Source: a virus (lineage: Duplodnaviria; Heunggongvirae; Uroviricota; Caudoviricetes). From it: 64,000 bases of DNA. The number at the start of each line of letters is the position of its first letter. Within the stretch, counting starts at the first letter, position 1. The stretch is taken from IMG/VR virus record IMGVR_UViG_3300032046_000009; one strand, written 5' to 3'. Shown here one piece after another: positions 1,679 to 56,726 of this stretch. Made by a program: the position numbers and the translations under genes. The notes under the pieces are model-generated. The model made no database searches. It saw only the letters and a list, made by a program, of their open reading frames with translations, and was not told where the DNA came from.

Positions 1679-1694
1679 TTAATCAGTTGATTAA
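1679..1694. promoter_or_regulatory. palindromic site TTAATCAGTTGATTAA
   Basis: TTAATCA-NN-TGATTAA family. Confidence 0.6.
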
Positions 1695-1699
1695 TTGGT

Positions 1700-2250
1700 G
1701 AGGCTTACGGATTCGCACCGTCAAACCCGAACCTACGCGAAGTTTGCACCTTCGCACGATTTGAGGCTTCGGTTTATAAGTCCTCGCCTCGCCTCTTCGG
1801 TTGTGCACCGAGTTCGCTACCGAGTAGAGCAAGTCCTCAATAGTATAATAGTACCGTCCTTTATAAAGGTTTCTGTACTAAAGTGTACGCAAAGGTTTAT
1901 ATACCCGTGTGCTATAGTAGTATTAGGGACGGTGGCGACACGAATCGGATATTACATGGACACGAATGCCATGAGTTCGGTTGCACCACGAGTTGAACTT
2001 TTGGTGTTCCGAAAAAATAATAGAAAAAAGGTGTCGGGAGTCCCGTTTAGTGTTTTGCACTTTTTTGGGTTATCCGTCTTTACGCTCTACCGTTCATCGA
2101 CTTACACTCCTATCGAACGTTTCGAACCGTTCTACCGTTCATCGGTAAGCACTCCTATCGAGCGTGTGTCAGAAGGCTAATTGTCCCTTTGTTAAGGGCT
2201 AATTGTCCCTCGTCCTTGTGAGGCTTCACGAGTTCGCCGTCTTGGGTCGC
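1700..2250 (-). ncRNA. candidate structured non-coding RNA or regulatory repeat region (GC-rich, ORF-less, promoter at 2278-2300)
   Basis: GC-rich island in an AT-rich context; minus-oriented TATA box upstream; tandem 48-bp repeat x2 and 14-bp repeat x2 inside; only a spurious plus ORF. Confidence 0.25.
2085..2211. repeat. tandem direct repeats: CTACCGTTCATCG..CTCCTATCGA(A/G)CGT x2 (about 48 bp period) and GGCTAATTGTCCCT x2
   Basis: read directly in the sequence. Confidence 0.7.
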
Positions 2251-2352
2251 CCGCGCCTCAATAATATACTATGTCAGCGTGGTATATAAACCTTTCTCAA
2301 TTTGTGATTATAGAAAGTTGAACTATTGTCCCTTGCTTATAAAGGTTTCGAC

Positions 2353-2368
2353 TTAATCAGTTGATTAA
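2353..2368. promoter_or_regulatory. palindromic site TTAATCAGTTGATTAA between TATA and ATG
   Basis: TTAATCA-NN-TGATTAA family. Confidence 0.6.
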
Positions 2369-2624
2369 AAAATGCCAAATTCGCCGTTCCGCTTCGCCGT
2401 ACCGTTCCATCAATACCTACGATGTTTCCGAATTTCGTGATGAAAAGTGGGCAACTGTGATTGAAAAGCATGGGAAAAGACCATACCTACACGTCTGTTC
2501 ACGATTCATCACAATGGGAGCTATGGGAAAAAAGCATGGTATTGTGGTGAATAGTGAGCAACTGTGTATTGTGTGGCTAAACGAAAAATTCTCTAAGTTT
2601 TCAGTTAATAGAAAGTTGTACTAA

Positions 2625-2640
2625 AAAAAGAAGGGAAAGT
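2625..2640 (-). terminator. oligo-T terminator (TCCCTTCTTTTTTT on minus strand)
   Basis: A7 run on plus strand immediately 3 prime of the minus gene end; same AAAAAAAGAGGGA-like element recurs at 195-210, 1021-1030, 3540-3555, 6975-6985. Confidence 0.45.
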
Positions 2641-2663
2641 TGCACCGTCTATATCACGGTGGT

Positions 2664-2897
2664 TTAACTCCACAGGCGCACCACAAGTCTGTTTACCGTT
2701 GCAAACTCTGGGTTGACCACGTTAGTTATCCCTGCAAGTTTAACTATTTCGCCGATTATGGTTATTCTTGCAGTTGTTCCGCAGTTGATACATTCGCTTG
2801 TACGCTGTGGTAGTCTCGCAGTTGCACTTTTTATAGCCTTCACGGATTTAACTATCGTGTGGTGTCTGCATTTGGGACAATTTCCGAAATATTCCAT
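2664..2897 (-). CDS. zinc-ribbon small protein (77 aa; CPKC...CINC)
   Basis: track ORF; two CxxC pairs; followed by minus-strand oligo-T at 2625-2640. Confidence 0.55.
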   Translation of the reverse strand: MEYFGNCPKCRHHTIVKSVKAIKSATARLPQRTSECINCGTTARITIIGEIVKLAGITNVVNPEFATVNRLVVRLWS

Positions 2898-5439: not shown

Positions 5440-5680
5440 TCCGTAGAATGCAACTGAGAATGTCACATAAGCGCACATAGGCGTTTTTTTGATTCCAATT
5501 ATTTTCTGGTCAGAGCTTCCACGCCGTCCGTTTTACCTGTCGGTTTGCCCTGCTTAATCACCTGATTAAAAGTTCTCCACAGTTCCGCGAGCCTTTCGGA
5601 TAATAAAGTCACCGTTTGCCAAAACGTCTTTTTTTCAGGGCTATTTTGGCATTCAGGGGAGCTAGAGGGGGGGGACTTGT
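5440..5680. repeat. composite intergenic module copy 1 (GTCACATAAGCGCACATAGGCGTTTTTTT ... palindrome ... AACGTCTTTTTTTCAGGG..GCTAGAGGGGGGGGACT)
   Basis: shares about 45-nt 5 prime block, internal TTAATCA palindrome and 3 prime G-rich block with copies at 19745-20035 and 40840-41070. Confidence 0.6.
5554..5569. promoter_or_regulatory. palindromic site TTAATCACCTGATTAA
   Basis: 16-bp perfect palindrome family TTAATCA-NN-TGATTAA. Confidence 0.6.
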
Positions 5681-5699
5681 TTATAATGGGGTATTAATC

Positions 5700-6260
5700 A
5701 GTTGTTTAAAATAGAGCTATAGCACTATGTCAGTCAGCACGTTGTCGTATGCCAACTATTCACTCCATAGACCCTTTACGTATGACAACCCTTTTCTTTA
5801 CGTATGTAAAGGTCATCAGTATCTTTTATCGAGCATTTCTTTTATCCATGTACTCCACTTTTTAGCTATTCTGGGGGTCTAGTACCACTTTTAGGGGTCT
5901 TTTGAGGGGTATAGGGAGTCATCTAGGGGGTTAGTGATTAGAGGTCGTTAGGGGTTCGTGGTTAAGGGGGTCGGACGGGGGTTCTCTGGGGTTCGGGAAT
6001 TTACTTAACAATTTCTGTTAATGGTTAGGGGGGTCGGGGTAAAGGGTGCATGTGGCATGAGAGAGCCTGTTACGAGCTACGATTCGTTAATCAGTTGATT
6101 AAAAGTTCGGGTTTGCCTGTGTCGCCTTGCTACGGGCTTGGCAGAACTTGGGTCAGTCTGGGTTGACTAGGTGAAATCAAAAAGTGTTAAGGATTCTTAA
6201 CAAAAATTGTCTAAGTTTGCAGAGGGTAAAAGAGGGGGTTTCGAGAGAGGTTAGAAGGAA
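5700..6260. repeat. G-tract-rich non-coding block (irregularly spaced TAGGGG(G)T / GGGGTC units, more than 15 G4-5 runs)
   Basis: read directly; no ORF; contains palindrome at 6087-6102. Confidence 0.6.
6087..6102. promoter_or_regulatory. palindromic site TTAATCAGTTGATTAA
   Basis: TTAATCA-NN-TGATTAA family. Confidence 0.6.
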
Positions 6261-6389
6261 TGAGTAGAACGGGCGAAGGGAAAGCGCGAGAAAGGACGGT
6301 GAAAAAATGGAACAATATCCCTTCGCCCTTGATAGAGTAGTATGTCAAACGGGTATATAAAGGTTGTGGTAGAAAGACCATGCTCGAAT

Positions 6390-6617
6390 CTAGTGTTCGA
6401 CTTTATAGATTCCATAGAGCAGTACCAATATTCCAACAGGGACACCCAAAAATAGAAGCGGTGAAAATAGCGCACCAAAAGTAGCAGAAAAAGCGAAAAT
6501 GAAAATTCCACCCAGAATTGCCCCTATACTTTGGGTTAGAGGGTCACGTATGACTTCGATGGTTCTTGTGTAGAGCCACTTAAAGAATCCTATTTTTTGC
6601 TTGACCATCTTGTTCAC
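6390..6617 (-). CDS. small membrane protein (75 aa, 2 predicted TM helices)
   Basis: track ORF; hydrophobic stretches; promoter box 6641-6675. Confidence 0.5.
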   Translation of the reverse strand: MNKMVKQKIGFFKWLYTRTIEVIRDPLTQSIGAILGGIFIFAFSATFGALFSPLLFLGVPVGILVLLYGIYKVEH

Positions 6618-6671
6618 TTGATAATAACAACAACACCGAGCTATATAAAGGTTTCCTAAGAACGTCCATGC

Positions 6672-6809
6672 TCAAAATTCAATGTGAACTTTGAGTATTC
6701 CAGAAAGTATTAGAGCTATTACAACTACGAAAAAGGCTATCGGGGCAAATGCCATGATTATGCCAGCGTTCTCTTTTACTTTCTTAATCACGGTTTTTAG
6801 TGTTATCAT
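6672..6809 (-). CDS. small membrane protein (about 45 aa, 1 TM) with approx 105-nt structured 5 prime leader
   Basis: hand-translated; leader 6810-6915 has hairpins GGAAAC-AA-GGTTTCC and CGTCC...GGACG; promoter box 6941-6980. Confidence 0.3.
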   Translation of the reverse strand: MITLKTVIKKVKENAGIIMAFAPIAFFVVVIALILSGILKVHIEF

Positions 6810-7165
6810 TTTAGACCACTTAGATTAGCGCGGAACACGGACGATTCTCCAATAAGCGTCCATCACTCGTCAGCTAAGGACGTAGTTTGGAAACCTTGTT
6901 TCCGTGCTCATACGAGTAATACAATAATCAAACAACTATATAAAGATTGTGGTAGAAACATCATACTCAAAAAAAGAGAGTTTTAGAGAAATTGTTTATT
7001 CTCTGTCCGTATCTGAATGTCAATGTCCGTAACGAGTATTTCAATGCTGTCTATGTTTTGTTGTTTCTTGCGTCTTTTAGTCTTTACGGCATCTTTTAAG
7101 AGCTTTATGACGTATCGAGCTTGTTTCGGGGTTATTTTGACCTTAAACTCTTTGTCTATCATGGC

Positions 7166-8149: not shown

Positions 8150-8533
8150 TCAGAGAGGAATAACACCTAGCCATTTATAAACTTCGGTGTTAATTTCAGC
8201 CATACCCGAACCCGTCCATACGTTGTGAGGAATAGAAGTATGAAGAGACTCTGGAATGAAAATAACGTGTGATTTATCGATGTGGTGTCCTTCTGAACCG
8301 TTAAAAGGTGCGTTTAGAATAATAGAGCCTAATTCTCGGCGTTTAGCTTGAATCCTAGCTTGCGTTTTCTTGTGATAAATTCGATGTTCTCTCTCATATT
8401 TTCTCTCATAGTTTGGGTTTTCTAATCTCCATTTCCTCTTATATAACTTTACCTCTTTCTTATGTTTCAAACGCCAATTCTTGTAATATGTAATACGTTT
8501 TTCTCTTGAATCTGTGAGCGTCATTTGATTCAC
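8150..8533 (-). CDS. HNH-like nuclease-motif protein (127 aa), paralog of 9378..9704
   Basis: basic N-terminus; shared C-terminal block GxxxHHID...IPxxLHxSIxHxVWTGxGMAEIN with the paralog; promoter box 8119-8152. Confidence 0.4.
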   Translation of the reverse strand: MNQMTLTDSREKRITYYKNWRLKHKKEVKLYKRKWRLENPNYERKYEREHRIYHKKTQARIQAKRRELGSIILNAPFNGSEGHHIDKSHVIFIPESLHTSIPHNVWTGSGMAEINTEVYKWLGVIPL

Positions 8534-8870: not shown

Positions 8871-9266
8871 TTATTGTCTGGGTTTGTTTGCCCTTTCTCT
8901 AAAATCGTCTGTTTCTTGTTGTGTGAAAACTTTATCAATAGCTGGAAGTCTATCGCTCTTTACATAACCATGTAAAAGGTTTCTCTCTTCTACATATTCA
9001 TTATCGCTTTCAGCGTTCAAGTTGTGAGAAATAGCTGATAAACTTTCGTATGGAAGAATTCGGTTTAATACTTCATAAATTGCAACTTCATTGAATTCGT
9101 GAACGAACAACTCAGCACCAATATCATCAGCGATTATACTGTCAATGGAATAGATAACTTTGGTAATTTTAGTATCATATCTTGAAATAGTCCCAGAAGC
9201 CAAAGCTGTTCCATCGAGTTCAGCGTTATCGAAGTAAATTTTCTCCGTGTTCATCGCGTTCACCAA
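8871..9266 (-). CDS. hypothetical acidic protein (about 127 aa from ATG 9254)
   Basis: track ORF; promoter box 9291-9331 flanked by two palindromic sites. Confidence 0.5.
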   Translation of the reverse strand: MVNAMNTEKIYFDNAELDGTALASGTISRYDTKITKVIYSIDSIIADDIGAELFVHEFNEVAIYEVLNRILPYESLSAISHNLNAESDNEYVEERNLLHGYVKSDRLPAIDKVFTQQETDDFRERANKPRQ

Positions 9267-9286
9267 TTAATCAACTGATTAATCAG
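9267..9286. promoter_or_regulatory. palindromic site TTAATCAACTGATTAA(TCAG), between TATA and start of 8871..9266
   Basis: operator-like position downstream of TATA. Confidence 0.6.
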
Positions 9287-9331
9287 TACAGCGCGCTATA
9301 TAAAGTTTCGCCTAGAACGTCCATGTTCGAG

Positions 9332-9347
9332 TTAATCAACTGATTAA
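9332..9347. promoter_or_regulatory. palindromic site TTAATCAACTGATTAA, upstream of the promoter box
   Basis: TTAATCA-NN-TGATTAA family. Confidence 0.6.
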
Positions 9348-9377: not shown

Positions 9378-9704
9378 TTATGTGGTAAGCCATTCGAAAA
9401 CTTTATCATTTATTTCTGCCATACCCTGACCTGTCCAAACGCAATGATGAATAGAAATATGAAGTTCTCTGGGAATATAGATAACACATTCAAAATCTAT
9501 ATGATGAGCAACAGAGCCAATAAATCTCCCATTAAAAGGGTCAAACCCTAATTCTCGCCGTTTTGCATTCTTCATTTTAGTTCGCTCTGGGTGTTTTTTT
9601 CCCCACATTTTTATTTGTTCTCGTTGTCTCTTTTTTTGTGATTCAGTTTTCTCTTTTATTTCAACGTCAAAATTTCCAATAGACTTTAATCGCATCTGAA
9701 TCAT
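9378..9704 (-). CDS. HNH-like nuclease-motif protein (108 aa), paralog of 8150..8533
   Basis: HHID...H...WTGQGMAEIN block; TATA at 9725-9740. Confidence 0.4.
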   Translation of the reverse strand: MIQMRLKSIGNFDVEIKEKTESQKKRQREQIKMWGKKHPERTKMKNAKRRELGFDPFNGRFIGSVAHHIDFECVIYIPRELHISIHHCVWTGQGMAEINDKVFEWLTT

Positions 9705-12352: not shown

Positions 12353-12368
12353 TTAATCACCTGATTAA
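12353..12368. promoter_or_regulatory. palindromic site TTAATCACCTGATTAA at the predicted TSS of the 11991..12188 transcript
   Basis: lies about 25 nt downstream of the TATA of promoter box 12372-12415. Confidence 0.55.
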
Positions 12369-12386
12369 CTAGAACAACACCGTGAC

Positions 12387-12635
12387 TTATAAAGGTTGTT
12401 CCAGAAAGACCATTCTCGAAATACTGTTCCGTATCTTACAACTTTCGAGTTTAAGCCCATATTCAGCCTCTAATTGCTTCGCCCTCTTCGCCAGCCCGTC
12501 CTTATAGGATTTAACGCCCAGAATGAGCAGACAATCTTTCATCCATCCCTCATAAACGATTAGTTTGTCCCCCTCAATTCGAACTCCAAATCCAATATGC
12601 CCAAGTTTTCGAGCTACGTTCTTCAAATCAGTCAT
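12387..12635 (-). CDS. hypothetical protein (82 aa), no VxFT tail; 3 prime end overlaps the next promoter box
   Basis: track ORF. Confidence 0.5.
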   Translation of the reverse strand: MTDLKNVARKLGHIGFGVRIEGDKLIVYEGWMKDCLLILGVKSYKDGLAKRAKQLEAEYGLKLESCKIRNSISRMVFLEQPL

Positions 12636-13593: not shown

Positions 13594-14292
13594 TCAGTCC
13601 TCTTCTTTCTTGTTCTTCTTTGCCTTTTCTGCCTTTTGGTCACAGAGAAAACTTTCGCATTGCCCGTTCAATTCGTCCAGCATATTCACGGTGTCTAACA
13701 TTTCGTTATATCGCTCGTGTCCCTTCATGCTTTCGATGTGTGAATTGCAAATCTCAACTGCTTTTCGACATCTCCAAAGTGTGCTCTGAGCCATGCGTTT
13801 GTCTTTTAACCCGTCCTCTGCCATCTTGACGTGTTCCATTATGAAGTTAAGAATGAACTCTGCTTTCTTGTCTTTGTAGTTTTCGAATCCTTCTGGGGTC
13901 GTGAAAATCGGAATGATTTTTATGCGTCTGTCGATGTCCTCAAATCCTTTGCTCTTTGCCTTTGCCTTTATCTCTTCAATTTCTGCAACAGCTAAGTCCA
14001 GCTTATCGCCGTCCAGAAGCCAACTGCTTTCGAGATGTTTCACAGCGTCCAGCTTGAATTTCAGAGCGAACACAATTGCGTTTCTGAAAATTCGCGCAAG
14101 TTTGTTGAATCGCGTGTTTGCGTCCCGTTGTTCTTTTGTCAACTTTTTCTTTTCCGCGTCCGTCAGATATTTCTCGCTGTAAAGGTCATACTCTATTGTA
14201 TAAATCGTTTCGCCGTGTAGTCCTAACGATTCAAGAGCCTTTTCGTCTATGATGAGTTTGTTTGTCGTTTTTTGGTCAGCCATTTTAATCAC
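13594..14292 (-). CDS. hypothetical protein (232 aa), coiled-coil-like, Lys/Glu-rich
   Basis: track ORF; palindromic site immediately upstream (14285-14300). Confidence 0.55.
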   Translation of the reverse strand: MIKMADQKTTNKLIIDEKALESLGLHGETIYTIEYDLYSEKYLTDAEKKKLTKEQRDANTRFNKLARIFRNAIVFALKFKLDAVKHLESSWLLDGDKLDLAVAEIEEIKAKAKSKGFEDIDRRIKIIPIFTTPEGFENYKDKKAEFILNFIMEHVKMAEDGLKDKRMAQSTLWRCRKAVEICNSHIESMKGHERYNEMLDTVNMLDELNGQCESFLCDQKAEKAKKNKKEED

Positions 14293-14300
14293 TTGATTAA
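14285..14300. promoter_or_regulatory. palindromic site TTAATCACTTGATTAA
   Basis: TTAATCA-NN-TGATTAA family. Confidence 0.6.
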
Positions 14301-14352
14301 CTATAAATACAGCGTCCTATATAAACGTTTGCTAGGAATCTCCATTCTCATT

Positions 14353-14715
14353 TTACTTAATCAGGTGATTAAACGATTTATGACTAATAATTCTGTGACA
14401 ATTCGCGCAGACTAATCGAACGTCCTCTGGAATTTTCTCTGCCCTTCTCCAACGAACCAATTCTTTTACTCTTCGATTCGCATTTTTTTGTTGTTCATTG
14501 CAACGAAGCCATGTATCGTTTCCTTCATGGTGAAAATCATAAACACAAGAATCAAAATGTTTATCGCAATGAAAACACTTATCGCCTAACTTTTGAATCG
14601 CCCAGAGTTTTAATTCTTCTAGCCATTTTTGGTGATATATCTTTTGGCATTCAGGACATCTTTGAGATTTTGTATTTGTTTCTTTTTCACAGTCTTGACA
14701 TTTCATTTGAAACAC
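14353..14715 (-). CDS. HNH endonuclease family protein (120 aa)
   Basis: CxxC...DFHHEGND...N...CANCHRII motif arrangement typical of HNH nucleases. Confidence 0.55.
   Translation of the reverse strand: MFQMKCQDCEKETNTKSQRCPECQKIYHQKWLEELKLWAIQKLGDKCFHCDKHFDSCVYDFHHEGNDTWLRCNEQQKNANRRVKELVRWRRAEKIPEDVRLVCANCHRIISHKSFNHLIK
14357..14372. promoter_or_regulatory. palindromic site TTAATCAGGTGATTAA
   Basis: TTAATCA-NN-TGATTAA family. Confidence 0.6.
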
Positions 14716-16667: not shown

Positions 16668-16698
16668 CTTTATTACCTTACGAGTATAGATGCCAGCG

Positions 16699-16756
16699 TC
16701 CTATTTAAATGTTTGCTTAGAAAGACCATGTTCATTTTAGTTAATCAACTGATTAA
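16699..16756 (-). promoter_or_regulatory. promoter box (TATTTAAAT TATA, GACCATGTTCA upstream element) plus upstream palindromic site TTAATCAACTGATTAA (16741-16756)
   Basis: near-identical architecture repeated at 18963-19023 for the VWA gene. Confidence 0.6.
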
Positions 16757-18962: not shown

Positions 18963-19023
18963 GCGTAGCTTATAAAGGTTTCCCCAGAACGACCATGCTC
19001 GTTTTAGTTAATCAACTGTTTAA
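18963..19023 (-). promoter_or_regulatory. promoter box plus upstream near-palindrome TTAATCAACTGTTTAA
   Basis: duplicate of the 16699-16756 architecture. Confidence 0.55.
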
Positions 19024-19406: not shown

Positions 19407-19422
19407 TTAATCATTTGATTAA
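19407..19422. promoter_or_regulatory. palindromic site TTAATCATTTGATTAA
   Basis: TTAATCA-NN-TGATTAA family. Confidence 0.55.
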
Positions 19423-19744: not shown

Positions 19745-20035
19745 GAAGGCTAGGTCACACTTTCGGTGTAACTTTCCGTCCCCTCGAAAATTAAATTTTT
19801 AGTAGAATCCTGAGTGTCACATAACGCACATAGGCGTTTTTTCTTCCCAATTAGATTTCGGTTTATGGTGAAGCCCTCTGCCAGCCCCCAACGTATTCCC
19901 CAGACTTTTAATCAACTGATTAAAAAAGCACCGACTTCAGGCTTCAGTTCCCATTGGCTTCGCCCTAGCATCCAGAACGTCTTTTTCCCTAGTCTATTTA
20001 CCTGTCAAATGTAGCTAGGGGTAGGGGACTAATCG
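19745..20035. repeat. composite intergenic module copy 2
   Basis: GTCACATAACGCACATAGGCGTTTTTT ... TTAATCAACTGATTAA (19908-19923) ... AACGTCTTTTTCCC..GCTAGGGGTAGGGGACTA. Confidence 0.6.
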
Positions 20036-28090: not shown

Positions 28091-28248
28091 ATTAGGATAT
28101 ATTATCAGCGTCCCTTATAAACTTTTGCCTAGAACATCCATGCCAATATAACCGTCTGTCCAAGCCCTTGTGCCATCAAAAGCCACTTTTTTAAACAGTT
28201 GATTAACTCGACTTTGGAAAAAATTCCACGGTCTTTCCAATAAATTAA

Positions 28249-28264
28249 TTAATCAACTGATTAA
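28249..28264. promoter_or_regulatory. palindromic site TTAATCAACTGATTAA (plus degenerate copy at 28191-28206)
   Basis: TTAATCA-NN-TGATTAA family. Confidence 0.6.
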
Positions 28265-30439: not shown

Positions 30440-30455
30440 TTAAACACCTGATTAA
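30440..30455. promoter_or_regulatory. degenerate palindromic site TTAAACACCTGATTAA
   Basis: one mismatch to the family consensus. Confidence 0.4.
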
Positions 30456-32807: not shown

Positions 32808-32823
32808 TTAATCACTTGATTAA
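32808..32823. promoter_or_regulatory. palindromic site TTAATCACTTGATTAA lying inside an operon (between the ATPase stop and a small TM gene start)
   Basis: TTAATCA-NN-TGATTAA family. Confidence 0.55.
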
Positions 32824-35879: not shown

Positions 35880-36640
35880 TGCCATGCTCAGTTTCGAAGT
35901 TAGTTCGAAAAAGTATATGAATTAAATTTAAGATTTAATGGGACTGTTATATAATTTTTCATGGTCTTTTCCCATAGGTTATAAACTATTCCATAAATCC
36001 TAAATATAATCCTTGATAGATTTCGGAGTTAGTTCGAAACATCAAAAAGTCCATACTTTTACCATAGACTATTCGAACAATTTTCGAAAAGAAAATATAA
36101 TTATTTAGGATTTTATGGATTAAAATAACTATCCGATTGCCCAGAGAAGCCATAAGAATGCCCCGTTTGACAAAAGGACATAGATATAAAAAATATTAAA
36201 ATTATATTTTAGAATTTTAATCAGGTGATTAACCGTGGTCGTATATTGCATGGACAATATAGGATAATTAATCAACTGATTAAAAATTCGAAAAATCGGG
36301 TGAGTCGCGCTCGCGCAAAATTTTGAGCATTCGAAAAAAAACTAACGTAGAAAAATTGAAAATGAAACATCCAAAACGGAACAGCCGTTAGGGGGTTTCG
36401 CTTCGTCCACTTGAACGGGACGGGCACGATTAGGCTAGAAGTACGTGTTTCTTTCTACACGCATTTTAATTCTATATACCAATTCATTAAATATATATAA
36501 TGGAAACAGTAATCGTTGTTTCAAGTCCTATTCTAGCATTCAGACGATTCGTTGTGGTGTAGTTTTCCATGCTATCACCCATAGCTGAGAAGTAGTATGT
36601 GCAAACTACTATATAAAGGTTGTGGTAGAAGAACCATGCT
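35880..36640. repeat. AT-rich repeat-rich intergenic region (TTCGAA-containing direct repeats, two palindromic sites at 36227-36242 and 36278-36293)
   Basis: direct repeat TTCG(A/G)AGTTAGTTCGAAA at 35893 and 36022; no ORFs; long AT tracts. Confidence 0.5.
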
Positions 36641-40325: not shown

Positions 40326-40341
40326 TTAATCAGTTGATTAA
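40326..40341. promoter_or_regulatory. palindromic site TTAATCAGTTGATTAA
   Basis: TTAATCA-NN-TGATTAA family. Confidence 0.6.
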
Positions 40342-40658: not shown

Positions 40659-40674
40659 TTAATCAGTTGATTAA
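40659..40674. promoter_or_regulatory. palindromic site TTAATCAGTTGATTAA
   Basis: TTAATCA-NN-TGATTAA family. Confidence 0.6.
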
Positions 40675-41070: not shown

Positions 41071-41088
41071 GAGAAAGTTGGTATATGC

Positions 41089-43882: not shown

Positions 43883-44061
43883 GTGAATTGAACCTTCTCC
43901 CGTTCATTCATAATTGACACATAAACCGTACAATGTTCTCTTATTCTGCAAGATTTTATGCAATATTCTTTGTTAAGCGAATTATGTACTGTGCATCCCG
44001 AAATACTCCATTTAACGTTCAGTTTAGAAGGATGCGTTAAAAGAACTGGTTCAGCACTCAT
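43879..44061 (-). CDS. VxFT-tail family (REKVQFT)
   Basis: track ORF. Confidence 0.6.
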   Translation of the reverse strand: MSAEPVLLTHPSKLNVKWSISGCTVHNSLNKEYCIKSCRIREHCTVYVSIMNEREKVQFT

Positions 44062-44309
44062 GTAAACTGCACCACTTCTCGTTCTTCATATTTCCCACTC
44101 ATAAAGTTTTCCCAAGAATTAGTCCACGCACTTTGGAATTTAATAGAATCAACATTCTTTACTTCCTTATCATAAACTTTTCCCCACGCCGCACGACAAT
44201 TTGGGCAAAGATAAACAGTTTCCAAATTTTGTCCATTTTTATCAATTGGATGTACTCTTACTAACGCATCAGACATATTATTGCACTTGTCACATGGTCT
44301 CTTCATCAT
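44058..44309 (-). CDS. VxFT-tail family (REVVQFT)
   Basis: track ORF. Confidence 0.6.
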   Translation of the reverse strand: MMKRPCDKCNNMSDALVRVHPIDKNGQNLETVYLCPNCRAAWGKVYDKEVKNVDSIKFQSAWTNSWENFMSGKYEEREVVQFT

Positions 44310-44554: not shown

Positions 44555-44823
44555 GTAAAATGCACAACCTCTGGGTCTTCTGGCGTTACAAAGACGCTAG
44601 TGCTTTCAGGCTCAATTTTAGTGCCATTTCCTCTACGATTCCAAATAACAATAGATTCTGTTGGGGAATTACTTGAACAACTTCTAACAAACATTGCCGT
44701 ACAATCTTCGCAACGAACCCACGGTACTTCCTTTTCAGTATGTTGGCTATGAAGATGAGGGGCTAAATTTCGTGAGCCGCACATAGGACATTTCTTGAAG
44801 TTCTTTTTAAGTATGATTGTCAT
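44551..44823 (-). CDS. VxFT-tail family (PEVVHFT); ATG start at 44823
   Basis: track ORF 44551..44952 trimmed; the 5 prime extension is the overlapping frame of the upstream member. Confidence 0.55.
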   Translation of the reverse strand: MTIILKKNFKKCPMCGSRNLAPHLHSQHTEKEVPWVRCEDCTAMFVRSCSSNSPTESIVIWNRRGNGTKIEPESTSVFVTPEDPEVVHFT

Positions 44824-44987
44824 GTGAACTGTACCTTCTTCTCTCCTTCTATATATTTTTTCCGTGCTATTTTTGCACAAGCAACAGAACAAAAGCCCTT
44901 TTGACTTGAAAGAGTGCCGTTGTATATGTATTCTTTGTGGCATATTGAGCAAGTTCTAGGACCATTACCATGTCTATGTCGTTTCAA
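44820..44987 (-). CDS. VxFT-tail family (55 aa, KKVQFT), TTG start
   Basis: hand-translated (L)KRHRHGNGPRTCSICHKEY... Confidence 0.45.
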   Translation of the reverse strand: MKRHRHGNGPRTCSICHKEYIYNGTLSSQKGFCSVACAKIARKKYIEGEKKVQFT

Positions 44988-45085
44988 GTGAATTGCACCT
45001 TCTCTTTCTGATATTCTTTAGCAAGTCGTTTAAACCAGCGAAGTCGTCTAAAGATGAGAGGATAGTCTATATCTTTTCTGTTCAT
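44984..45085 (-). CDS. VxFT-tail family mini member (33 aa, KEKVQFT), no Cys
   Basis: hand-translated. Confidence 0.4.
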   Translation of the reverse strand: MNRKDIDYPLIFRRLRWFKRLAKEYQKEKVQFT

Positions 45086-46024: not shown

Positions 46025-46453
46025 GTGAAAAATATGTCAGAAAGAAAAGAAAAAAACCACAAATATTTTTTAACCCATAAACCATACTTTAGAGATTATA
46101 TGAGAAATTGGTCGAGAAAAAACAAAAACAAAGTAAGTGACTATCACTTTCATAAAAAGTTAATAGCACTTGCCCATTATGGTGGAGAGCCACCAAAATG
46201 TGTTTGTTGCGGTGAAACAGAACCAAGATTTCTTACTATAGACCACATTAATGGTGATGGAGATAAACACAGAAGAGCTATTTCTAATAATCGCAGTTTT
46301 TCTGGTGGACCATTTTACGGTTGGTTAATCAAAAATAATTTCCCAGAAGGATACCAAGTAATGTGTTCTAATTGTAATATGGCTAAAGGGAAAACGAAAG
46401 TTAAGTTTTGTCCAGTTCATCATCCAGAACTATACCAACCGCAACATTTATAA
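46025..46453 (+). CDS. HNH endonuclease
   Basis: CVCCGE...TIDHINGDGDKHR...N...CSNCN arrangement; 142 aa; rare plus-strand gene. Confidence 0.65.
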   Translation: MKNMSERKEKNHKYFLTHKPYFRDYMRNWSRKNKNKVSDYHFHKKLIALAHYGGEPPKCVCCGETEPRFLTIDHINGDGDKHRRAISNNRSFSGGPFYGWLIKNNFPEGYQVMCSNCNMAKGKTKVKFCPVHHPELYQPQHL

Positions 46454-46548
46454 GTCGGTTTTGACTTATGGTGCGGAGCAGAGCCACGGAGTCAAGATTT
46501 CTATAACGCCTCTTCATCCTCGCCGCGATTCTAAAATTTTAAACAGTT

Positions 46549-46564
46549 GATTAAAAGAATTCAC
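46549..46564. promoter_or_regulatory. degenerate palindromic site TTAAACAGTTGATTAA
   Basis: one mismatch to the family consensus. Confidence 0.4.
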
Positions 46565-46602: not shown

Positions 46603-47040
46603 CTAGAAGATTTCTATAGTTGTACTATTCTTCTTTTTCGTAACAAATTCGACTGTAAATCGCCATTTTTTTGTGTTAGTATCATAGCAATAAAGTGATT
46701 TGTGAATATTGTCGAGAGACATCTTAGCCTCATGTCCCACAACTTGGTCTAACACTTGATGAAGAACTTCATGCCCAATAATTTCTTCAGCGCATTTCTC
46801 ATAATCGCTACATTCTGGTCGAGCAAAAATTTTTATCTGAATCCACCCAGTATATCCACCCGCAATACAATTATCAAAATACATATTGACTTCGGATTTG
46901 TTGCAGATTCCTACATAAACTCCTATAGGATTCTCTTTTGTTACAGCGGCTTTGATTTTAAGATAATAGTCATAAAAGGCGGGCAAAGACACTCGTATCA
47001 AATCAAATGGAAACCGTGCTTTTTTCTTTAAGCCAGCCAT
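46603..47040 (-). CDS. hypothetical protein (145 aa)
   Basis: track ORF; TATA TTTAAAGG at 47075-47090. Confidence 0.5.
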   Translation of the reverse strand: MAGLKKKARFPFDLIRVSLPAFYDYYLKIKAAVTKENPIGVYVGICNKSEVNMYFDNCIAGGYTGWIQIKIFARPECSDYEKCAEEIIGHEVLHQVLDQVVGHEAKMSLDNIHKSLYCYDTNTKKWRFTVEFVTKKKNSTTIEIF

Positions 47041-49155: not shown

Positions 49156-49271
49156 TTTGCGATGGGTGTGGCAAAGATGTTCAAGTATTATACAAGAAGC
49201 CAAAGACGACACGATGGCTCTGTGAGAATTGTAAACATATAAAAGAAAAAACTAAGGTGCAGTTCACTTGA
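49152..49271 (+). CDS. VxFT-tail family (36 aa, KTKVQFT), TTG start
   Basis: hand-translated (L)ICDGCGKDVQVLYKKPKTTRWLCENCKH... Confidence 0.45.
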   Translation: MICDGCGKDVQVLYKKPKTTRWLCENCKHIKEKTKVQFT

Positions 49272-49537
49272 AAATCCCTATAATTATGGTTCCCATAGAC
49301 AAAATAATTCCAAGAGGAAATCCCAAAGTTGAGAAGGTATTACTTGAAGATATTCGAGTTAATGGATTAAAAGAGCCTTTGCGAGTAATGTTTCGTGAAG
49401 ATGGAAAAGCCATAATTCTGAATGGTCATCATCGGTACTTTTGTTGTAAAGAATTGAACTATAAAGAAATACCATGTTTTGATGGGAAAATTTATTACCC
49501 ACCTAATTCCTATCTTGATTATCCCAAATCAATTTGA
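49268..49537 (+). CDS. ParB/Srx-like nuclease-domain protein, TTG start translationally coupled to the plus-strand VxFT array
   Basis: ILNGHHRYFC = ParB-like GxHR motif; 89 aa. Confidence 0.5.
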   Translation: MKIPIIMVPIDKIIPRGNPKVEKVLLEDIRVNGLKEPLRVMFREDGKAIILNGHHRYFCCKELNYKEIPCFDGKIYYPPNSYLDYPKSI

Positions 49538-54525: not shown

Positions 54526-55238
54526 TACTTCTCAGCCTTTTGTGCTTTCTCAAGTTTCTTTTTCAGTTCGGCTATGTGAGCGTCTTTCTTCTTTACTTCT
54601 TCTATGATTTTTGCAGTTTCGGGGTCAATCAATGGTATCATTTCTTCTTTTGTGGGTATCATAGTTTCTGGTTTCTTAAATTGTTCGGCTAGTTTTGCTT
54701 GGCGTTCAGCTTCCATTGCGGCACGTTCTTTCTTCTGTAGTTCATATGCTTCCGCTTTTCTAGTTTCCTGATAGTCTGTCTGGGTTTTTCTGAAAATTTC
54801 ATATTTGTAAATATCAGCGTTACTTATCGAATCTGGAACCACCTTTATGTCATCAGGCACACCCATTGCAATTTTTCGTTCACGATTCTTGGTAGCTTGT
54901 TCGCTTCTAATTTGCCAATTACGACATTTCTGGCACATTGATTTCTCTGGAATCATAACATTGTCAACCTCTGTGTTCGGTTCCTTTATTAGTCTTTTTC
55001 CTTTTTCTTCGAGACTTCGAGTTGAACCCTCAATTTTTGTGCCCATACTATTCCATTCGGTTGGAACAGTTTTACGAAATACCTTCTTACATTTAGGGCA
55101 ACCAAAAATATTCCCATCAATAGACTTCGCCAATTCTGTTTTGTCGTCAGGGCAAGTATGTTTCTTGAAGACGTAAACCTTCAACATTGTTACGAAATAA
55201 TCTTGTCCACATGATGAACATTTCTGTTTTTGTTTCAT
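54525..55238 (-). CDS. zinc-ribbon plus Lys/Glu-rich coiled-coil protein (237 aa)
   Basis: track ORF; CSSC...CPKCKK; C-terminal KAE repeats; promoter box 55275-55310. Confidence 0.55.
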   Translation of the reverse strand: MKQKQKCSSCGQDYFVTMLKVYVFKKHTCPDDKTELAKSIDGNIFGCPKCKKVFRKTVPTEWNSMGTKIEGSTRSLEEKGKRLIKEPNTEVDNVMIPEKSMCQKCRNWQIRSEQATKNRERKIAMGVPDDIKVVPDSISNADIYKYEIFRKTQTDYQETRKAEAYELQKKERAAMEAERQAKLAEQFKKPETMIPTKEEMIPLIDPETAKIIEEVKKKDAHIAELKKKLEKAQKAEK

Positions 55239-55487
55239 ATTTCAATCACTATAAAGGTATTACGCACTCGTCCTATTTAAACTTTGCGTCAGAAACTCCA
55301 TGCTCAACTTCTAATCAATGAGAGGGTCAACCATTCATTGACGAGAACCATAATGTCATCTGGGTATTTTGGAAACTCTGGAATATCTAAAAATAGAAAC
55401 AACTCGATAAAGAAGTAAGGCTTTCGGTCTGTCCAATAAATTCTTTGAACCATCGAAGGACGTATTCTAAGTTCTTTTATCAATCGA

Positions 55488-55659
55488 ACTTCACCTTTTC
55501 AGACTCTACACGAACTTTATAACAGTCATCAAATGCATGGGGATTCTCAATATACGAACGAGTTTTCTTCCAACATTTTCTACAGAAACATTCTTTGGTT
55601 CTACAGTCTTTAAACTTGGCATCACATTCGAATTCGATACCGCAATTAAGGCATTTCAA
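55488..55659 (-). CDS. VxFT-tail family (about 55 aa, SEKVKFD)
   Basis: hand-translated (L)KCLNCGIEFECDAKFKDC... Confidence 0.4.
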
Positions 55660-55805
55660 TCGAATTGGACCTTCTCTATTTTATGAAAATAGTTGTAATA
55701 TTCGTGAGCAAGTCGTACAAACCATCTCATACATGCTCTATGATTACTACCACATTGAGTGGTCGGTGGTGGTATTATACATCCCCATGTATTTTTTGGT
55801 TTCAT
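55656..55805 (-). CDS. VxFT-tail family (47 aa, IEKVQFD)
   Basis: hand-translated MKPKNTWGCIIPPPTTQCG... Confidence 0.4.
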   Translation of the reverse strand: MKPKNTWGCIIPPPTTQCGSNHRACMRWFVRLAHEYYNYFHKIEKVQFD

Positions 55806-55849
55806 GTGAACGTAACCTTTTCTTCTTCTACAAATTTAATTGCCATCAT
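55802..55849 (-). CDS. mini-ORF (MMAIKFVEEEKVTFT, 15 aa) consisting almost only of the conserved tail, first cistron after a TATA at 55895-55910
   Basis: hand-translated; ATGA junction to the next member. Confidence 0.3.
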   Translation of the reverse strand: MMAIKFVEEEKVTFT

Positions 55850-55925
55850 AATAAAACGAGTGTACCATCCTAAAGCCGCTCTGCATTTGTTATTTCCAAG
55901 TCGAAATTTGTGATTATGGATTTGC

Positions 55926-56618
55926 CTATATAATTTTGTTTGAGCCATCCCGCCATTCCCTCAGTCCGTAACTTTTGTTTGCCTTAATGAACACGAGTGG
56001 ACCGTGGGTATAACTCATTTCCTTAACTTCTCTTTGCAATCTTGGAATCAGATTAAGTTTATCTTGAACGGTCCATTCTGATTTTTGAGCGGCTTGAATA
56101 TCTTTCTTAATAAGGGCATCAGCCATAATGTTGACACAGCATATCTCACCACATTGTATAAGTCTGTCAGTCACGACATGAGTTAATTCGTTAAGTTCTT
56201 CTCCTGTAAAATCATTCACCGTAAAGTGTGAATTAACATTAATCATATGTGGTTGGTCTTTGAAAATAATTTTCGTCCTATATTGCCATTTCTTCCACCA
56301 CGACTGAACCCAAAAATGAACAAATTCCTCTGTGTCTTTTATATCTTGCAAATTTTTGGTTACGCCAAAATTTTCTACAATTAATGATATAATCTCTTCC
56401 ATGATTACTTGTTGCGAAGGTAGAAACTCTTGAGATATTTGTTTATCAACACTCATATGGTTTCTGTCAAGATATTCAGTATAATTCTTAAAGTCTTCAA
56501 TGCAGATTTCATAAACCTTTCGGTCTTCGCCAGTAAGACTTAGCAATGGACAAATTTCAGCTAGATTATTGAAAATTAACGTGTTAATCCAAAATCTCAT
56601 ATCTATATTAAGAGCCAT
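55926..56618 (-). CDS. hypothetical protein (230 aa)
   Basis: track ORF; promoter box 56655-56695 plus palindromic site 56711-56726. Confidence 0.55.
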   Translation of the reverse strand: MALNIDMRFWINTLIFNNLAEICPLLSLTGEDRKVYEICIEDFKNYTEYLDRNHMSVDKQISQEFLPSQQVIMEEIISLIVENFGVTKNLQDIKDTEEFVHFWVQSWWKKWQYRTKIIFKDQPHMINVNSHFTVNDFTGEELNELTHVVTDRLIQCGEICCVNIMADALIKKDIQAAQKSEWTVQDKLNLIPRLQREVKEMSYTHGPLVFIKANKSYGLREWRDGSNKII

Positions 56619-56710
56619 TATACATCAATACTCCAACTACTATAATCTCTCCGTCCCTTATAAACCTTACGCTAGAATAACCATGCTCAATTTAAAGGTT
56701 ATGATGCCAG

Positions 56711-56726
56711 TTAATCAACTGATTAA
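56711..56726. promoter_or_regulatory. palindromic site TTAATCAACTGATTAA upstream of the promoter box
   Basis: TTAATCA-NN-TGATTAA family. Confidence 0.6.

What the first reader, a model, noticed from the sequence alone, without database searches (positions are those of the whole stretch)
1679..56726. About 22 copies of a 16-bp perfect palindrome TTAATCA-NN-TGATTAA
The sites have 7-bp inverted half-sites with a variable central dinucleotide (AC/GT, CC/GG, CT, TT), typical of a dimeric HTH or RHH DNA-binding protein. Their positions vary. Some lie about 25 bp upstream of the promoter box in an activator-like position (16741, 19008, 9332, 56711, 19908). Some lie between TATA and the start codon in an operator-like position (9267, 2353, 12353). 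A few lie inside operons (32808) or in clusters (14716-14772, 28191-28264, 36227-36293, 19407-19488). This points to a regulon controlled by one factor. The cognate regulator is not obvious among the annotated genes.
Basis: seen in the sequence. Interest (0 to 1): 0.7.

Follow-up and report, generated by a model that had tools for sequence, protein, structure and literature searches.

The report
Conserved operator palindrome in archaeal virus
A 16-bp inverted repeat (TTAATCA-NN-TGATTAA) occurs 25 times between the genes of a ~154-kb archaeal-type virus and is kept letter-for-letter in distant relatives, always at set distances from promoters, so it is almost certainly the docking site of one DNA-binding regulator that has not yet been identified.

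Summary
The window holds 20 exact and 5 one-mismatch copies of TTAATCA-NN-TGATTAA, against 0.01 expected by chance. Nearly all are intergenic, and half-sites do not occur alone.

The element uses archaeal-style BRE/TATA promoters. About 32 of them share an extended box, TGAGCATGGTCTTTCTAGG-N6-TTTATA. Sites sit at fixed positions relative to the TATA box:
- centred on the predicted transcription start (+30 to +33);
- just upstream of the box (-36 to -40);
- or in long non-coding stretches.

The same 14 bases are invariant in 138 distinct sites from relatives with 30-95% protein identity and from unrelated elements. One of those lies on a contig binned with a Bathyarchaeia genome. The central NN and the flanks drift freely. 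In a 112-kb relative the site lies 8 nt upstream of TATA (centre -16) or just downstream of it (+24).

The hairpin the palindrome could form is weak. No mobile-element features were found.

I read this as an operator set for one dimeric regulator. No regulator was found in the window. The best lead is a rare small winged-helix family encoded in other elements. In 6 of 7 subfamilies its gene is directly preceded by the palindrome.

This is a new regulon of a known kind, of moderate interest.

The parts
1679..1694 (.). Exact site at one edge of a ~0.8-kb non-coding region (about 1580-2360) that contains several TATA-like elements and short direct repeats.
   Evidence: the + strand ORF 1695-2180 looks spurious
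2353..2368 (.). Exact site, 9 nt upstream (on the minus, coding strand) of cgaaacc-TTTATAA. Centre is -17 from TATA, the same geometry as in the 112-kb relative.
5554..5569 (.). Exact site in the 1.7-kb largely non-coding stretch 5479-7165, 61 nt from a TTTGCCAAA motif.
5694..5709 (.). One-mismatch site (TTAATCAGTTGTTTAA) in the same non-coding stretch.
6087..6102 (.). Exact site in the same non-coding stretch, next to C-rich sequence.
9267..9282 (.). Exact site centred +29.5 from the first T of the TATA in promoter box 9283-9335. That is on the predicted transcription start, 12 nt before the ATG of gene 8871-9254 (operator position).
9332..9347 (.). Exact site centred -35.5 from the same TATA, abutting the extended promoter box. 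It forms a pair with 9267 (65 bp apart) that brackets the promoter.
12353..12368 (.). Exact site centred +32.5 from the TATA of box 12372-12424 (start-site position). It is followed by about 310 nt with no called gene.
14285..14300 (.). Exact site centred +32.5 from the TATA of box 14304-14356, 1 nt before the ATG of gene 13594-14283 (229 aa).
   Evidence: the same layout is conserved in L179, L188, L195 and L215
14357..14372 (.). Exact site centred -39.5 from the same TATA. It overlaps the last codons of the HNH-like gene 14353-14706. Forms a pair with 14285 (72 bp apart).
16741..16756 (.). Exact site centred -39.5 from the TATA of box 16688-16740, the promoter of the CobS/MoxR-like AAA gene 15780-16667.
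19008..19023 (.). One-mismatch site centred -39.5 from the TATA of box 18955-19007, the promoter of the 575-aa gene 17211-18938.
19407..19422 (.). Exact site, distal member of a pair upstream (-164.5) of the plus-strand promoter box 19548-19600.
   Evidence: half-sites invariant in 3 of 4 aligned relatives, one mismatch in L217
19473..19488 (.). Exact site, proximal member of that pair (-98.5 from the plus-strand TATA). A conserved 35-bp block containing TTTGGCAAA lies between it and the box.
19908..19923 (.). Exact site in non-coding DNA (19754-20165). No promoter box lies within 300 bp. Conserved in relatives with a different central NN.
28191..28206 (.). One-mismatch site, -77.5 from the TATA of box 28100-28152. 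That box is the promoter of the operon 27800-28090 / 27479-27736 / 26612-27469 (P-loop ATPase).
28249..28264 (.). Exact site, -135.5 from the same TATA. Forms a pair with 28191 (58 bp apart).
30440..30455 (.). One-mismatch site, 2 nt before the GTG start of gene 30168-30437, which lies upstream of the SPFH gene.
   Evidence: in the relative, two sites lie upstream of the SPFH homologue
32808..32823 (.). Exact site containing the TGA stop of the KaiC-like ATPase gene 32812-33756, 1 nt before an uncalled ATG. From my own reading of the printed DNA, that ATG opens an ORF of about 38 codons that looks like a membrane peptide.
36217..36232 (.). Exact site, member of a pair in the 0.8-kb non-coding region 35826-36639.
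36268..36283 (.). Exact site, the other member of that pair (51 bp apart).
40326..40341 (.). Exact site, -98.5 from the TATA of box 40214-40266, the promoter of gene 39972-40193. The called ORF 40208-40453 that contains the site also contains the promoter box and is probably spurious.
40659..40674 (.). Exact site in the non-coding region 40454-41088. It coincides with a homology breakpoint against relatives.
46539..46554 (.). One-mismatch site between the convergent genes 46034-46453 (+, HNH) and 46603-47040 (-). A strain variant (L010) has a different gene here next to an exact site.
56711..56726 (.). Exact site centred -54.5 from the TATA of box 56643-56695, the promoter of gene 55926-56618. 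It lies just after an uncalled HNH-like ORF.

Best explanation
TTAATCA-NN-TGATTAA is the operator of one sequence-specific DNA-binding protein that binds as a symmetric dimer, or as a pair of dimers. It controls a subset of archaeal-type BRE/TATA promoters in a ~154-kb virus-like element.

What is shown:
- The motif is hugely over-represented, intergenic, and occurs only as a full inverted repeat.
- The two 7-bp arms are invariant while the 2-bp centre and the flanks drift.
- Sites sit at a few discrete distances from TATA boxes.
- The motif and these geometries persist in relatives whose proteins are only 30-70% identical, and in unrelated elements.

What is inferred:
- Sites centred on the predicted transcription start (9267, 12353, 14285; +24 in the relative) block RNA polymerase recruitment.
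- Sites 8 nt upstream of TATA (2353 here; the main class in the relative) overlap the BRE and block TFB/TBP.
- Sites abutting the extended promoter box (9332, 14357, 16741, 19008) either cooperate with the downstream site by looping or modulate the factor that uses the box.
- Distal and clustered sites in long non-coding regions act as extra loading or looping sites, or as roadblocks.

The most tightly controlled genes have two sites each: 8871-9254 and 13594-14283. The neighbouring CobS/MoxR-like ATPase and the 575-aa protein have one site each.

The binder was not found in the window. It may be encoded in the unseen ~74 kb, by a co-resident element, or by the host. The best candidate family is a rare ~95-aa winged-helix protein, whose gene in other elements is directly preceded by the same palindrome in an autoregulation-like layout.
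For: Enrichment: 20 exact sites against 0.01 expected, and 25 against 1.1 with mismatches allowed. It is the only enriched palindrome. Half-sites are not enriched alone. 21 of 23 sites are intergenic, P = 7e-11.

Promoter geometry in the window: site centres lie at -39.5 (three sites), -35.5, +29.5 and +32.5 (two sites) from the first T of TATA.

Geometry in relatives: peaks at -39/-34 and +32/+34 in close relatives, and at -16 and +24 in the 112-kb relative.

The site-box-TATA-site-ATG layout at the 229-aa gene is conserved in loci with 70-74% protein identity, and those loci have different central NN.

Phylogenetic footprint: in the 4-way alignment the arms are invariant while the centres and flanks vary.

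Breadth: 138 distinct exact sites across related and unrelated loci. The centre is AC/GT in 52, AT in 49 and CC/GG in 14.

The same motif, as 2-3 copies upstream of a TATA, occurs in elements that share almost no genes with the window, including a contig binned with a Bathyarchaeia genome.

Winged-helix family A4: one or two palindromes lie within about 150 nt upstream of the gene in 6 of 7 subfamilies. In four of these (L187, L221, L226, L227) the proximal site is exactly 8 nt from the TATA. The AlphaFold model has pLDDT 93.5 with an H-H-H-beta-beta-H topology. All top Foldseek hits are winged-helix DNA binders, including STIV F93.

Bacterial signals are absent: sigma-70-like sites number 43 against 46 expected, and terminator-like sites 11 against 17.
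Against: No binding experiment exists and no transcription start sites have been mapped, so start positions are inferred from TATA spacing.

No regulator was found in the window or in the fetched parts of the relatives. The A4 profile finds nothing there (best E = 2.1), nothing in IMG/VR, and no A4 member lies on a long contig of this virus.

The link between the A4 gene and the site could simply mean that the gene is a target rather than the binder.

About half of the window's sites are not near any recognisable promoter.

Sites coincide with homology breakpoints more often than chance, so a recombination role is not excluded.
Confidence: 0.75

Rival explanations
1. The palindrome, together with the conserved promoter box, is mainly a recombination linker. 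In this view it is a short identical sequence at module boundaries that lets related viruses swap gene cassettes, as proposed for the promoter-stem-loop (PeSL) cassettes of T4-type phages. Any protein binding would be secondary.
For: Ends of homology between the window and 20 related loci fall within 20 bp of a site in 7 of 46 cases. The null is 0.8 for any position and 2.6 if all breakpoints were intergenic (P = 0.015).

Between the equivalents of sites 19008 and 19407, one relative (L201) carries an HNH gene where the window has non-coding DNA.

Different HNH families sit upstream of the same palindrome-bracketed promoter in different relatives.

A strain variant swaps the gene next to site 46539.
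Against: A 16-bp identity is short for homologous exchange.

BLAST alignments tend to end at conserved islands in fast-evolving spacers anyway, so the breakpoint result is expected to some degree.

This view does not explain the exact spacing to TATA boxes and start sites, nor why the arms are invariant while the centre is free. A recombination linker would be conserved throughout.

It does not explain conservation in elements that share no genes.
Confidence: 0.12
2. The sites are loading sites for a partition or genome-organising protein that also silences nearby promoters. The model is KorB binding its 12 OB palindromes on plasmid RK2, or ParB binding parS.
For: There are many identical palindromes dispersed over more than 55 kb, at promoter-proximal, intermediate and remote positions.

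They cluster in long non-coding regions here and in the relative, which has 6 sites in 1.2 kb.

Two ParB N-terminal-domain proteins are encoded in the window, at 63682-63963 and 49268-49537.
Against: The two ParB-like proteins are about 90 aa and match only the N-terminal domain. No HTH domain was detected and no ParA partner was seen.

Sites track TATA boxes at base-pair precision, which partition alone does not need.
Confidence: 0.08
3. The palindrome acts in the nucleic acid itself, as an RNA or DNA hairpin. Possible roles would be a transcription terminator, a protective 3' end, or a processing site.
For: Several sites in the window are preceded by T-runs on the coding strand and lie between the end of one transcription unit and the next promoter.
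Against: The hairpin is weak. Mean minimum free energy is -1.7 kcal/mol for the 16-mer. With 12-nt flanks it is -4.75, against -3.83 +/- 2.7 for random 40-mers.

There are no compensatory changes. The arms are invariant, and the one-mismatch variants break pairing.

In the relative the upstream flank is A-rich (AAAGA), not T-rich.

Sites centred on start sites and sites just upstream of TATA make no sense as terminators.

The window has no Rfam match.
Confidence: 0.03
4. The sites are targets or landing pads of the element's many HNH homing endonucleases, or termini of a small mobile element.
For: Four of five HNH-like genes in the window have a site within 90 nt of their stop codon (my reading of the CxxCH / HH...H motifs, supported by PHROG 'HNH endonuclease' hits for two members).

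HNH genes flank sites in relatives as well.
Against: Intact sites persist in 25 copies in a genome that encodes the nucleases, whereas homing normally destroys or avoids its own target.

Three unrelated HNH families sit next to the same motif.

There are no target-site duplications and no conserved internal sequence between paired sites. Apart from the promoter box and a short A/T-rich bias, the flanks are unrelated.

Most sites have no HNH gene nearby.
Confidence: 0.03

Closest known systems
Stoperators of cluster A mycobacteriophages (L5 gp71 repressor; about 24-30 sites per genome). From my own knowledge, not checked in the literature here.
   Same: There are dozens of copies of one short repressor-binding sequence spread over the whole viral genome. 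Nearly all lie in short intergenic spaces. Some are at promoters and others lie between genes inside operons.
   Different: Stoperators are asymmetric 13-bp sites with a fixed orientation relative to transcription, in a bacterial virus whose repressor gene is known. Here the site is a symmetric 7-2-7 inverted repeat, the promoters are archaeal BRE/TATA, and the binder is unknown. Neither lysogeny nor elongation blocking is shown.
KorB and its OB operators on IncP-1 plasmid RK2 (from my own knowledge).
   Same: About a dozen identical palindromes are dispersed over a ~60-kb replicon, at promoter-proximal, intermediate and remote positions. They form one global regulon.
   Different: KorB is a full-length ParB-family protein that also has a partition role. 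Here only ~90-aa ParB N-terminal-domain proteins are present, and the system is archaeal.
Small regulators of archaeal viruses that bind at BRE/TATA or at the start site, such as SSV1 F55, SIRV1 SvtR (ribbon-helix-helix) and STIV F93 (winged helix).
   Same: They are small virus- or element-encoded dimeric DNA binders that act right at archaeal core promoters. The candidate family A4 is a winged-helix protein, and F93 is among its structural matches.
   Different: Those regulators have a handful of sites with different sequences. No sequence homology to any of them was found. The Foldseek E-values are weak (0.04-0.5), so only the fold class is supported.
PeSL (promoter-early stem-loop) cassettes of T4-type phages (from my own knowledge).
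   Same: A short palindromic element next to a highly conserved promoter recurs between small orphan genes and coincides with mosaic junctions.
   Different: The PeSL stem-loop is a stable terminator-like hairpin. Here the hairpin is weak, and it is the sequence rather than the pairing that is conserved.
A TetR-family operator in Vibrionaceae, upstream of a TetR gene next to leuA.
   Same: Two copies of exactly TTAATCA-NN-TGATTAA lie about 47 bp apart (63 bp start to start), directly upstream of a TetR-family gene in about 30 Vibrionaceae genomes. This is consistent with a homodimeric HTH protein reading this 7-2-7 site, though that the TetR protein binds it is itself an inference.
   Different: This is a bacterial chromosome with one locus per genome and no relation to the archaeal elements. 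It is an analogy only.

Membership tests
Operator for a dimeric transcription regulator | Inverted repeat with conserved arms and an unconstrained centre, occurring only as the full dyad | tested here: met
   The arms are invariant in 20 exact window sites and in 138 distinct sites from related loci. The centre uses 9 of the 10 possible strand-symmetric dinucleotide classes. Isolated half-sites are not enriched.
Operator for a dimeric transcription regulator | Fixed position relative to core promoter elements | tested here: met
   In the window, centres lie at -39.5 (three sites), -35.5, +29.5 and +32.5 (two sites) from TATA. In the 112-kb relative the peaks are at -16 and +24.
Operator for a dimeric transcription regulator | Conserved more strongly than the surrounding non-coding DNA (phylogenetic footprint) | tested here: met
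   Shown by the 4-way alignment A2. The promoter layout is conserved at 70-74% protein identity. The motif is kept between elements that share almost no genes.
Operator for a dimeric transcription regulator | A cognate DNA-binding protein, typically encoded next to its own site | tested here: inconclusive
   None was found in the window. In other elements a winged-helix family has the site upstream of its gene in 6 of 7 subfamilies (fold).
Operator for a dimeric transcription regulator | Demonstrated specific binding and an effect on transcription | not testable with these tools
   Needs EMSA or footprinting, and transcript mapping.
Intrinsic terminator or structured RNA hairpin | Stable stem whose pairing is kept by compensatory changes | tested here: not met
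   The 16-mer folds at -1.7 kcal/mol and is no better than random 40-mers when flanks are included. There is no covariation, and mismatches are one-sided. No Rfam family matches.
Miniature mobile element (MITE/IS) termini | Terminal inverted repeats bounding a conserved unit, flanked by target-site duplications | tested here: not met
   The two arms are only 2 bp apart. Flanks are unrelated apart from the promoter box and an A/T bias, and there are no direct repeats at the edges.
ParB-parS / KorB-OB system | A ParB-family protein with a DNA-binding HTH, usually with a ParA partner, and sites concentrated at a centromere | tested here: not met
   Only two ~90-aa proteins match, and they match ParB_N alone. 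No ParA was seen in the 80 kb examined. Sites are dispersed over 55 kb.
L5-type stoperator system | Repressor gene present, a lysogenic state, and sites that block elongation depending on their orientation | not tested
   No repressor or integrase was identified in the 80 kb examined. The site is symmetric, so orientation cannot be scored.
CRISPR array or tandem repeat | Regular spacing of repeats | tested here: not met
   Spacing ranges from 51 bp to more than 10 kb.

The most novel reading that the evidence does not exclude
The palindrome is a shared 'immunity' operator used by a whole community of unrelated mobile elements of one archaeal host group, possibly Bathyarchaeia. In this reading a rare ~95-aa winged-helix repressor, carried by small integrated elements, autoregulates through the site. 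The 154-kb virus carries 25 or more copies of the site without encoding that repressor. One element, or the host, could then silence or time the expression of another through a common cis-code, as a cross-element, stoperator-like network. A conserved extended promoter box (GAGCATGGTCTTTCTAGG-N6-TTTATA), also shared between unrelated elements, would be a second word of the same code.
Probability: 0.2. Interest if true: 0.75.

Novelty: new member of a known kind. Interest (0 to 1): 0.5.

Why it matters
Almost nothing is known about gene regulation in viruses of uncultivated sediment archaea. This work supplies:
- an exact cis-element;
- a set of promoters it marks;
- the geometry that predicts repression;
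- a short list of proteins to test.

These can be tested with synthetic DNA and recombinant protein, with no need for a culture.

The motif is also a cheap sequence tag for finding related viruses and other mobile elements in metagenomes. A paired-site pattern pulled out dozens of such loci. If unrelated elements really share one operator, that would point to regulatory cross-talk between mobile elements in one host.

Tried and rejected
Searches for relatives and known RNAs:
- No near-identical DNA in deposited phage genomes. Protein hits there are only distant.
- No tRNAs and no Rfam families.
- The exact motif strings do not occur in the searchable literature. A paper on Bathyarchaeia viruses does not mention such a motif.

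Bacterial signals:
- Sigma-70 promoter and intrinsic terminator scans are at or below chance.

Hairpin idea:
- Rejected on energy and on lack of covariation.

Mobile-element termini:
- Rejected because flanks are unrelated and there are no direct repeats.

Search for the regulator in the window:
- Pfam and PHROG scans of 142 proteins listed no HTH or ribbon-helix-helix family, but only the 25 most-matched of 97-163 families are shown, so single-member hits may be hidden. The listed hits are zinc ribbons, ParB_N and HNH.
- PDB sequence searches of four candidates were empty.
- The ribbon-helix-helix-like protein 58514-58681 has only five close homologues (67-98% identity) and none in the divergent relative, so it cannot be the shared binder.
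- The proteins behind the double-site promoters (8871-9254, 13594-14283) are not obvious DNA binders. The 229-aa protein also occurs in a relative whose fetched 13.5 kb contains no sites.
- Profile searches with the ribbon-helix-helix-like and winged-helix families from other elements found nothing in the window or in its relatives.

Covariation test:
- I looked for a relative with an altered palindrome, hoping to find a co-varying regulator. The one relative without the motif has no other enriched palindrome.

Full report
**1.

TTAATCANNTGATTAA occurs 20 times exactly in the 64-kb window. 100 dinucleotide-preserving shuffles give a mean of 0.01. Allowing mismatches adds five one-mismatch copies, at 5694, 19008, 28191, 30440 and 46539, for 25 against 1.1 expected.

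A blind scan for any inverted repeat with 6-bp arms finds this as the only enriched palindrome. The half-site alone is not enriched: 11 isolated copies, against a mean of 17 for 7-mers of the same composition. The full dyad is therefore the unit.

In this window the central dinucleotide is never self-complementary, so 'perfect palindrome' is loose.

**2. What the element is**

Genes run almost entirely on the minus strand, and most are small orphans. No close relative exists among deposited phages.

The same proteins lie on an 86-kb and a 137-kb metagenome contig. The coordinates of those contigs wrap around the window, which implies a circular or circularly permuted genome of about 154 kb.

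Relatives are catalogued as viral genomes in IMG/VR.

Several things point to an archaeal host:
- A LonB-type protease lies just past the window.
- Some proteins match DUF7417 and DUF7569 and TFIIB-type zinc ribbons.
- There is no excess of sigma-70 promoters or intrinsic terminators.
- Above all, the promoters are of archaeal type. About 32 copies of a ~40-bp box, tTGAGCATGGtcnTTCTAGGcaAAcnTTTATAtaGGACG, each have a BRE-like A-rich stretch directly upstream of TTTATA. The start codon follows about 40-50 nt after the TATA and is often preceded by GGTGA/GTGAT.
- A distant site-bearing locus lies on a contig binned as Candidatus Bathyarchaeia. That host assignment is tentative.

**3. Where the sites sit**

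Of the 23 sites in the gene-called part of the window, 21 are intergenic although 74% of that DNA is coding (P = 7e-11).

Positions measured from the first T of the nearest TATA, in the direction of transcription:
- -39.5: sites 14357, 16741 and 19008.
- -35.5: site 9332.
- -54.5: site 56711.
- +29.5: site 9267.
- +32.5: sites 12353 and 14285.

An archaeal TATA is centred about 26-27 nt before the start site (established knowledge). The '+30' sites are therefore centred on the predicted start. Sites 14285 and 30440 end 1-2 nt before a called start codon, 9267 ends 12 nt before one, and 32808 ends 1 nt before an uncalled ATG.

Two promoters are bracketed by one upstream site and one start-site site: 9332/9267 for gene 8871-9254, and 14357/14285 for gene 13594-14283. 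Site 2353 lies 9 nt upstream of cgaaacc-TTTATAA.

Only 9 of 32 strong boxes have a site within 110 bp, so the motif marks a subset of promoters.

The remaining sites lie in long non-coding stretches: about 1580-2360, 5479-7165, 18939-20165, 35826-36639 and 40454-41088. Several are paired at 51-72 bp.

**4. Comparative evidence**

A search for two sites 30-60 bp apart found a 112-kb IMG/VR genome with 32-36% GC. It shares the CobS-like ATPase (68% identity), the 575-aa protein (50%), the 229-aa protein (50%), the SPFH protein (65%) and others.

The 59 kb of that genome I could fetch holds 33 or more exact sites, most with a central AT. It lacks the window's extended promoter box. Many of its sites lie 8-14 nt upstream of a TTTATAA that precedes an ATG by 45-55 nt. 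The offset distribution peaks at -16 and +24.

The same search in JGI metagenomes returned 41 loci. About 17 of them encode relatives of window proteins at 30-95% identity.

In loci with 70-74% identity, the 229-aa gene keeps the exact layout site-box-TATA-site-ATG, with different central dinucleotides.

A four-way alignment of the 19.4-19.9 kb spacer shows invariant arms with variable centres and flanks.

In total there are 138 distinct exact sites in related loci. The centre is AC/GT in 52, AT in 49, CC/GG in 14, with a few others.

One relative with a 70% identical CobS has no site in 13.5 kb. There the three conserved genes form a plain operon.

The motif also occurs as two or three copies upstream of a TATA in elements that share almost no genes with the window: L164/L186, L189, L190, L187, L204 and L209. 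Two of these, plus a probable integrated element next to cellular genes, also carry the extended GAGCAYGG...TTTATA box.

**5. Mechanism**

The following features are the signature of a site read by a symmetric protein dimer contacting two major grooves about 9 bp apart:
- invariant arms with a free 2-bp centre;
- dyad-only occurrence;
- base-pair-precise spacing to core promoter elements;
- conservation far beyond that of the neighbouring DNA.

By analogy with characterised archaeal repressors (established knowledge), a protein centred on the start site blocks polymerase recruitment, and one 8 nt upstream of TATA covers the BRE and blocks TFB/TBP. I therefore infer mainly repression.

For the -36 to -40 sites the effect is undecided. 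They could work by cooperative looping with the start-site copy, or by modulating whatever factor uses the extended box.

The distal and clustered sites could be auxiliary looping sites, loading sites or roadblocks. That part is speculation.

**6. Who binds**

I found no convincing DNA-binding protein in the window:
- Pfam and PHROG scans of 142 proteins listed zinc ribbons, ParB_N, HNH and enzymes. Only the 25 most-matched families are shown, so single-member hits could be hidden.
- PDB sequence searches of candidates were empty.
- A ribbon-helix-helix-like 55-aa protein (58514-58681) is restricted to close relatives.

In the unrelated elements, however, the first gene after the site pair is a ~95-aa protein in L187 and L190. 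Its family comprises 11 clusters in the 5.8-billion-protein set and 20 representatives in the exhaustive search.

It was examined in seven subfamilies. Six have one or two palindromes within about 150 nt upstream. In L187, L221, L226 and L227 the proximal site is exactly 8 nt from the TATA.

AlphaFold gives a confident winged-helix model (pLDDT 93.5). All top Foldseek hits are winged-helix DNA binders, including the archaeal-virus protein STIV F93, though the E-values are weak.

This looks like an autoregulated repressor and is my best candidate for the kind of protein that reads the site. No homologue was detectable in the window, its relatives or IMG/VR. For this virus the binder may therefore be a non-homologous analogue, may be encoded in the unseen ~74 kb, or may come from another element or the host.

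**7. Rivals**

- *Hairpin or terminator:* the stem is weak (-1.7 kcal/mol) and there is no covariation.
- *Mobile-element termini:* no target duplications and no conserved flanks.
- *parS/KorB-like:* only ParB_N fragments are present and no ParA.
- *HNH targets:* HNH genes are often adjacent, but three unrelated families are involved and the sites stay intact.
- *Recombination linker:* homology breakpoints are enriched at sites, 7 of 46 within 20 bp (P = 0.015 against an intergenic null). I keep this as a possible secondary consequence rather than the primary function.

**8. Novelty and interest**

The kind of feature is familiar: an operator set for one regulator. The closest analogues are the mycobacteriophage stoperators and the KorB OB sites.

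The motif itself, the promoter architecture and the candidate winged-helix family are undescribed as far as I could search.

Sharing of both cis-elements among unrelated elements hints at cross-element regulation. I rate interest as moderate.

Noticed in passing
window, e.g. 60817-60869, 16688-16740, 24562-24614 (about 32 strong copies; list): A ~40-bp promoter box, tTGAGCATGGtcnTTCTAGGcaAAcnTTTATAtaGGACG, recurs before many genes and often begins with the TGA stop of the previous gene. The part upstream of the BRE/TATA (GAGCATGG..TTCTAGG) is also present in unrelated elements (L190, L224, L218). It may be the site of a second factor.
   Followed up: partly
window, gene junctions throughout, e.g. 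21626-21655, 25388-25417, 44058-44087 (families D2, D4, D5): 54 of 119 small proteins end in ...E-K-V-x-F-T. At the DNA level this is GAGAAGGTGCAATTCAC-ATGA, with the next gene's ATG overlapping the stop. In the 112-kb relative the tail is ...KVKVILI instead. It looks like a Shine-Dalgarno-like coupling signal embedded in the last codons, but the conserved spacer is unexplained.
   Followed up: partly
window 20397-20879, 21132-21419, 25115-25927, 38394-38759, 44785-45081: Stretches called 'intergenic' actually hold further uncalled small Cys-rich (CxxC...CxxC) ORFs with the same C-terminal tail. The element carries dozens of zinc-ribbon mini-proteins, two of which match the TFIIB zinc ribbon.
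   Followed up: no
window ~5246: Two independent assemblies (ENA k141_72449 and a Logan contig) end at this point. A third contig runs through it, and its coordinates wrap around the window. This implies a ~154-kb circular or permuted genome with a strain-variable or repeat boundary here.
   Followed up: partly
window ~5600-5680, ~19960-20030, ~41020-41080 (minus strand): A repeated C-rich element, AGTCCCCTACCCCTAGCTCCCCT...CCCTGAAAAAAAGACGTTTT, occurs three times. At ~5.6 kb and ~20.0 kb it lies within about 130 nt of a palindrome; at ~41.05 kb the nearest site is about 370 nt away. Its function is unknown.
   Followed up: no
window 5615 and 19515; L015 2640, 6923, 8733, 8888; L190 1992; L197 3922, 5645; L196 1058: A second short motif, cgTTTGGCAAAag, lies 21-88 nt from palindromes in three different lineages. 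At 19.5 kb it sits inside a 35-bp block that is invariant among relatives.
   Followed up: partly
window 8150-8524, 9378-9704, 14353-14706, 46034-46453 (+), uncalled ORF ~56.75-57.0 kb: There are at least five HNH-type endonuclease genes, of three sequence families counting relatives. Four of them have a palindrome within 90 nt of their stop. In relatives, different HNH families occupy the same slot upstream of the 229-aa gene's promoter, and one relative has an HNH gene between the equivalents of sites 19008 and 19407.
   Followed up: partly
window 13594-14283, 15780-16667, 17211-18938: A CobS/MoxR-like AAA ATPase, a 575-aa protein and a 229-aa protein are adjacent in an operon in two relatives. 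In this virus they are split up, and each has its own palindrome-bearing promoter.
   Followed up: partly
L163 7098-7176 (Aliivibrio fischeri ES114 chromosome I) and about 30 other Vibrionaceae loci: Two copies of the same TTAATCA-NN-TGATTAA lie directly upstream of a TetR-family regulator gene that is divergent from leuA. This is presumably that repressor's operator and a coincidental match in bacteria.
   Followed up: partly
window 63682-63963 and 49268-49537 (+): Two ~90-aa proteins consist only of a ParB N-terminal domain. No HTH was detected and there is no ParA nearby.
   Followed up: no
window 28435-29115: A 226-aa protein with N- and C-terminal hydrophobic segments has an interior built from degenerate 30-nt repeats (V-Y-V-D-R-I-V...), found at 28769-28896.
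   Followed up: no
L164 1036-1692, L204 400-1125, L187 962-1501: In unrelated site-bearing elements, two genes beside the palindrome arrays (L164, L204) are mutually related (E = 3e-9). By eye they carry a PD-(D/E)xK-like D...E-V-K motif, as does the L187 protein. Pfam gives only faint Hjc/UPF0102 hints, and only for L187.
   Followed up: partly
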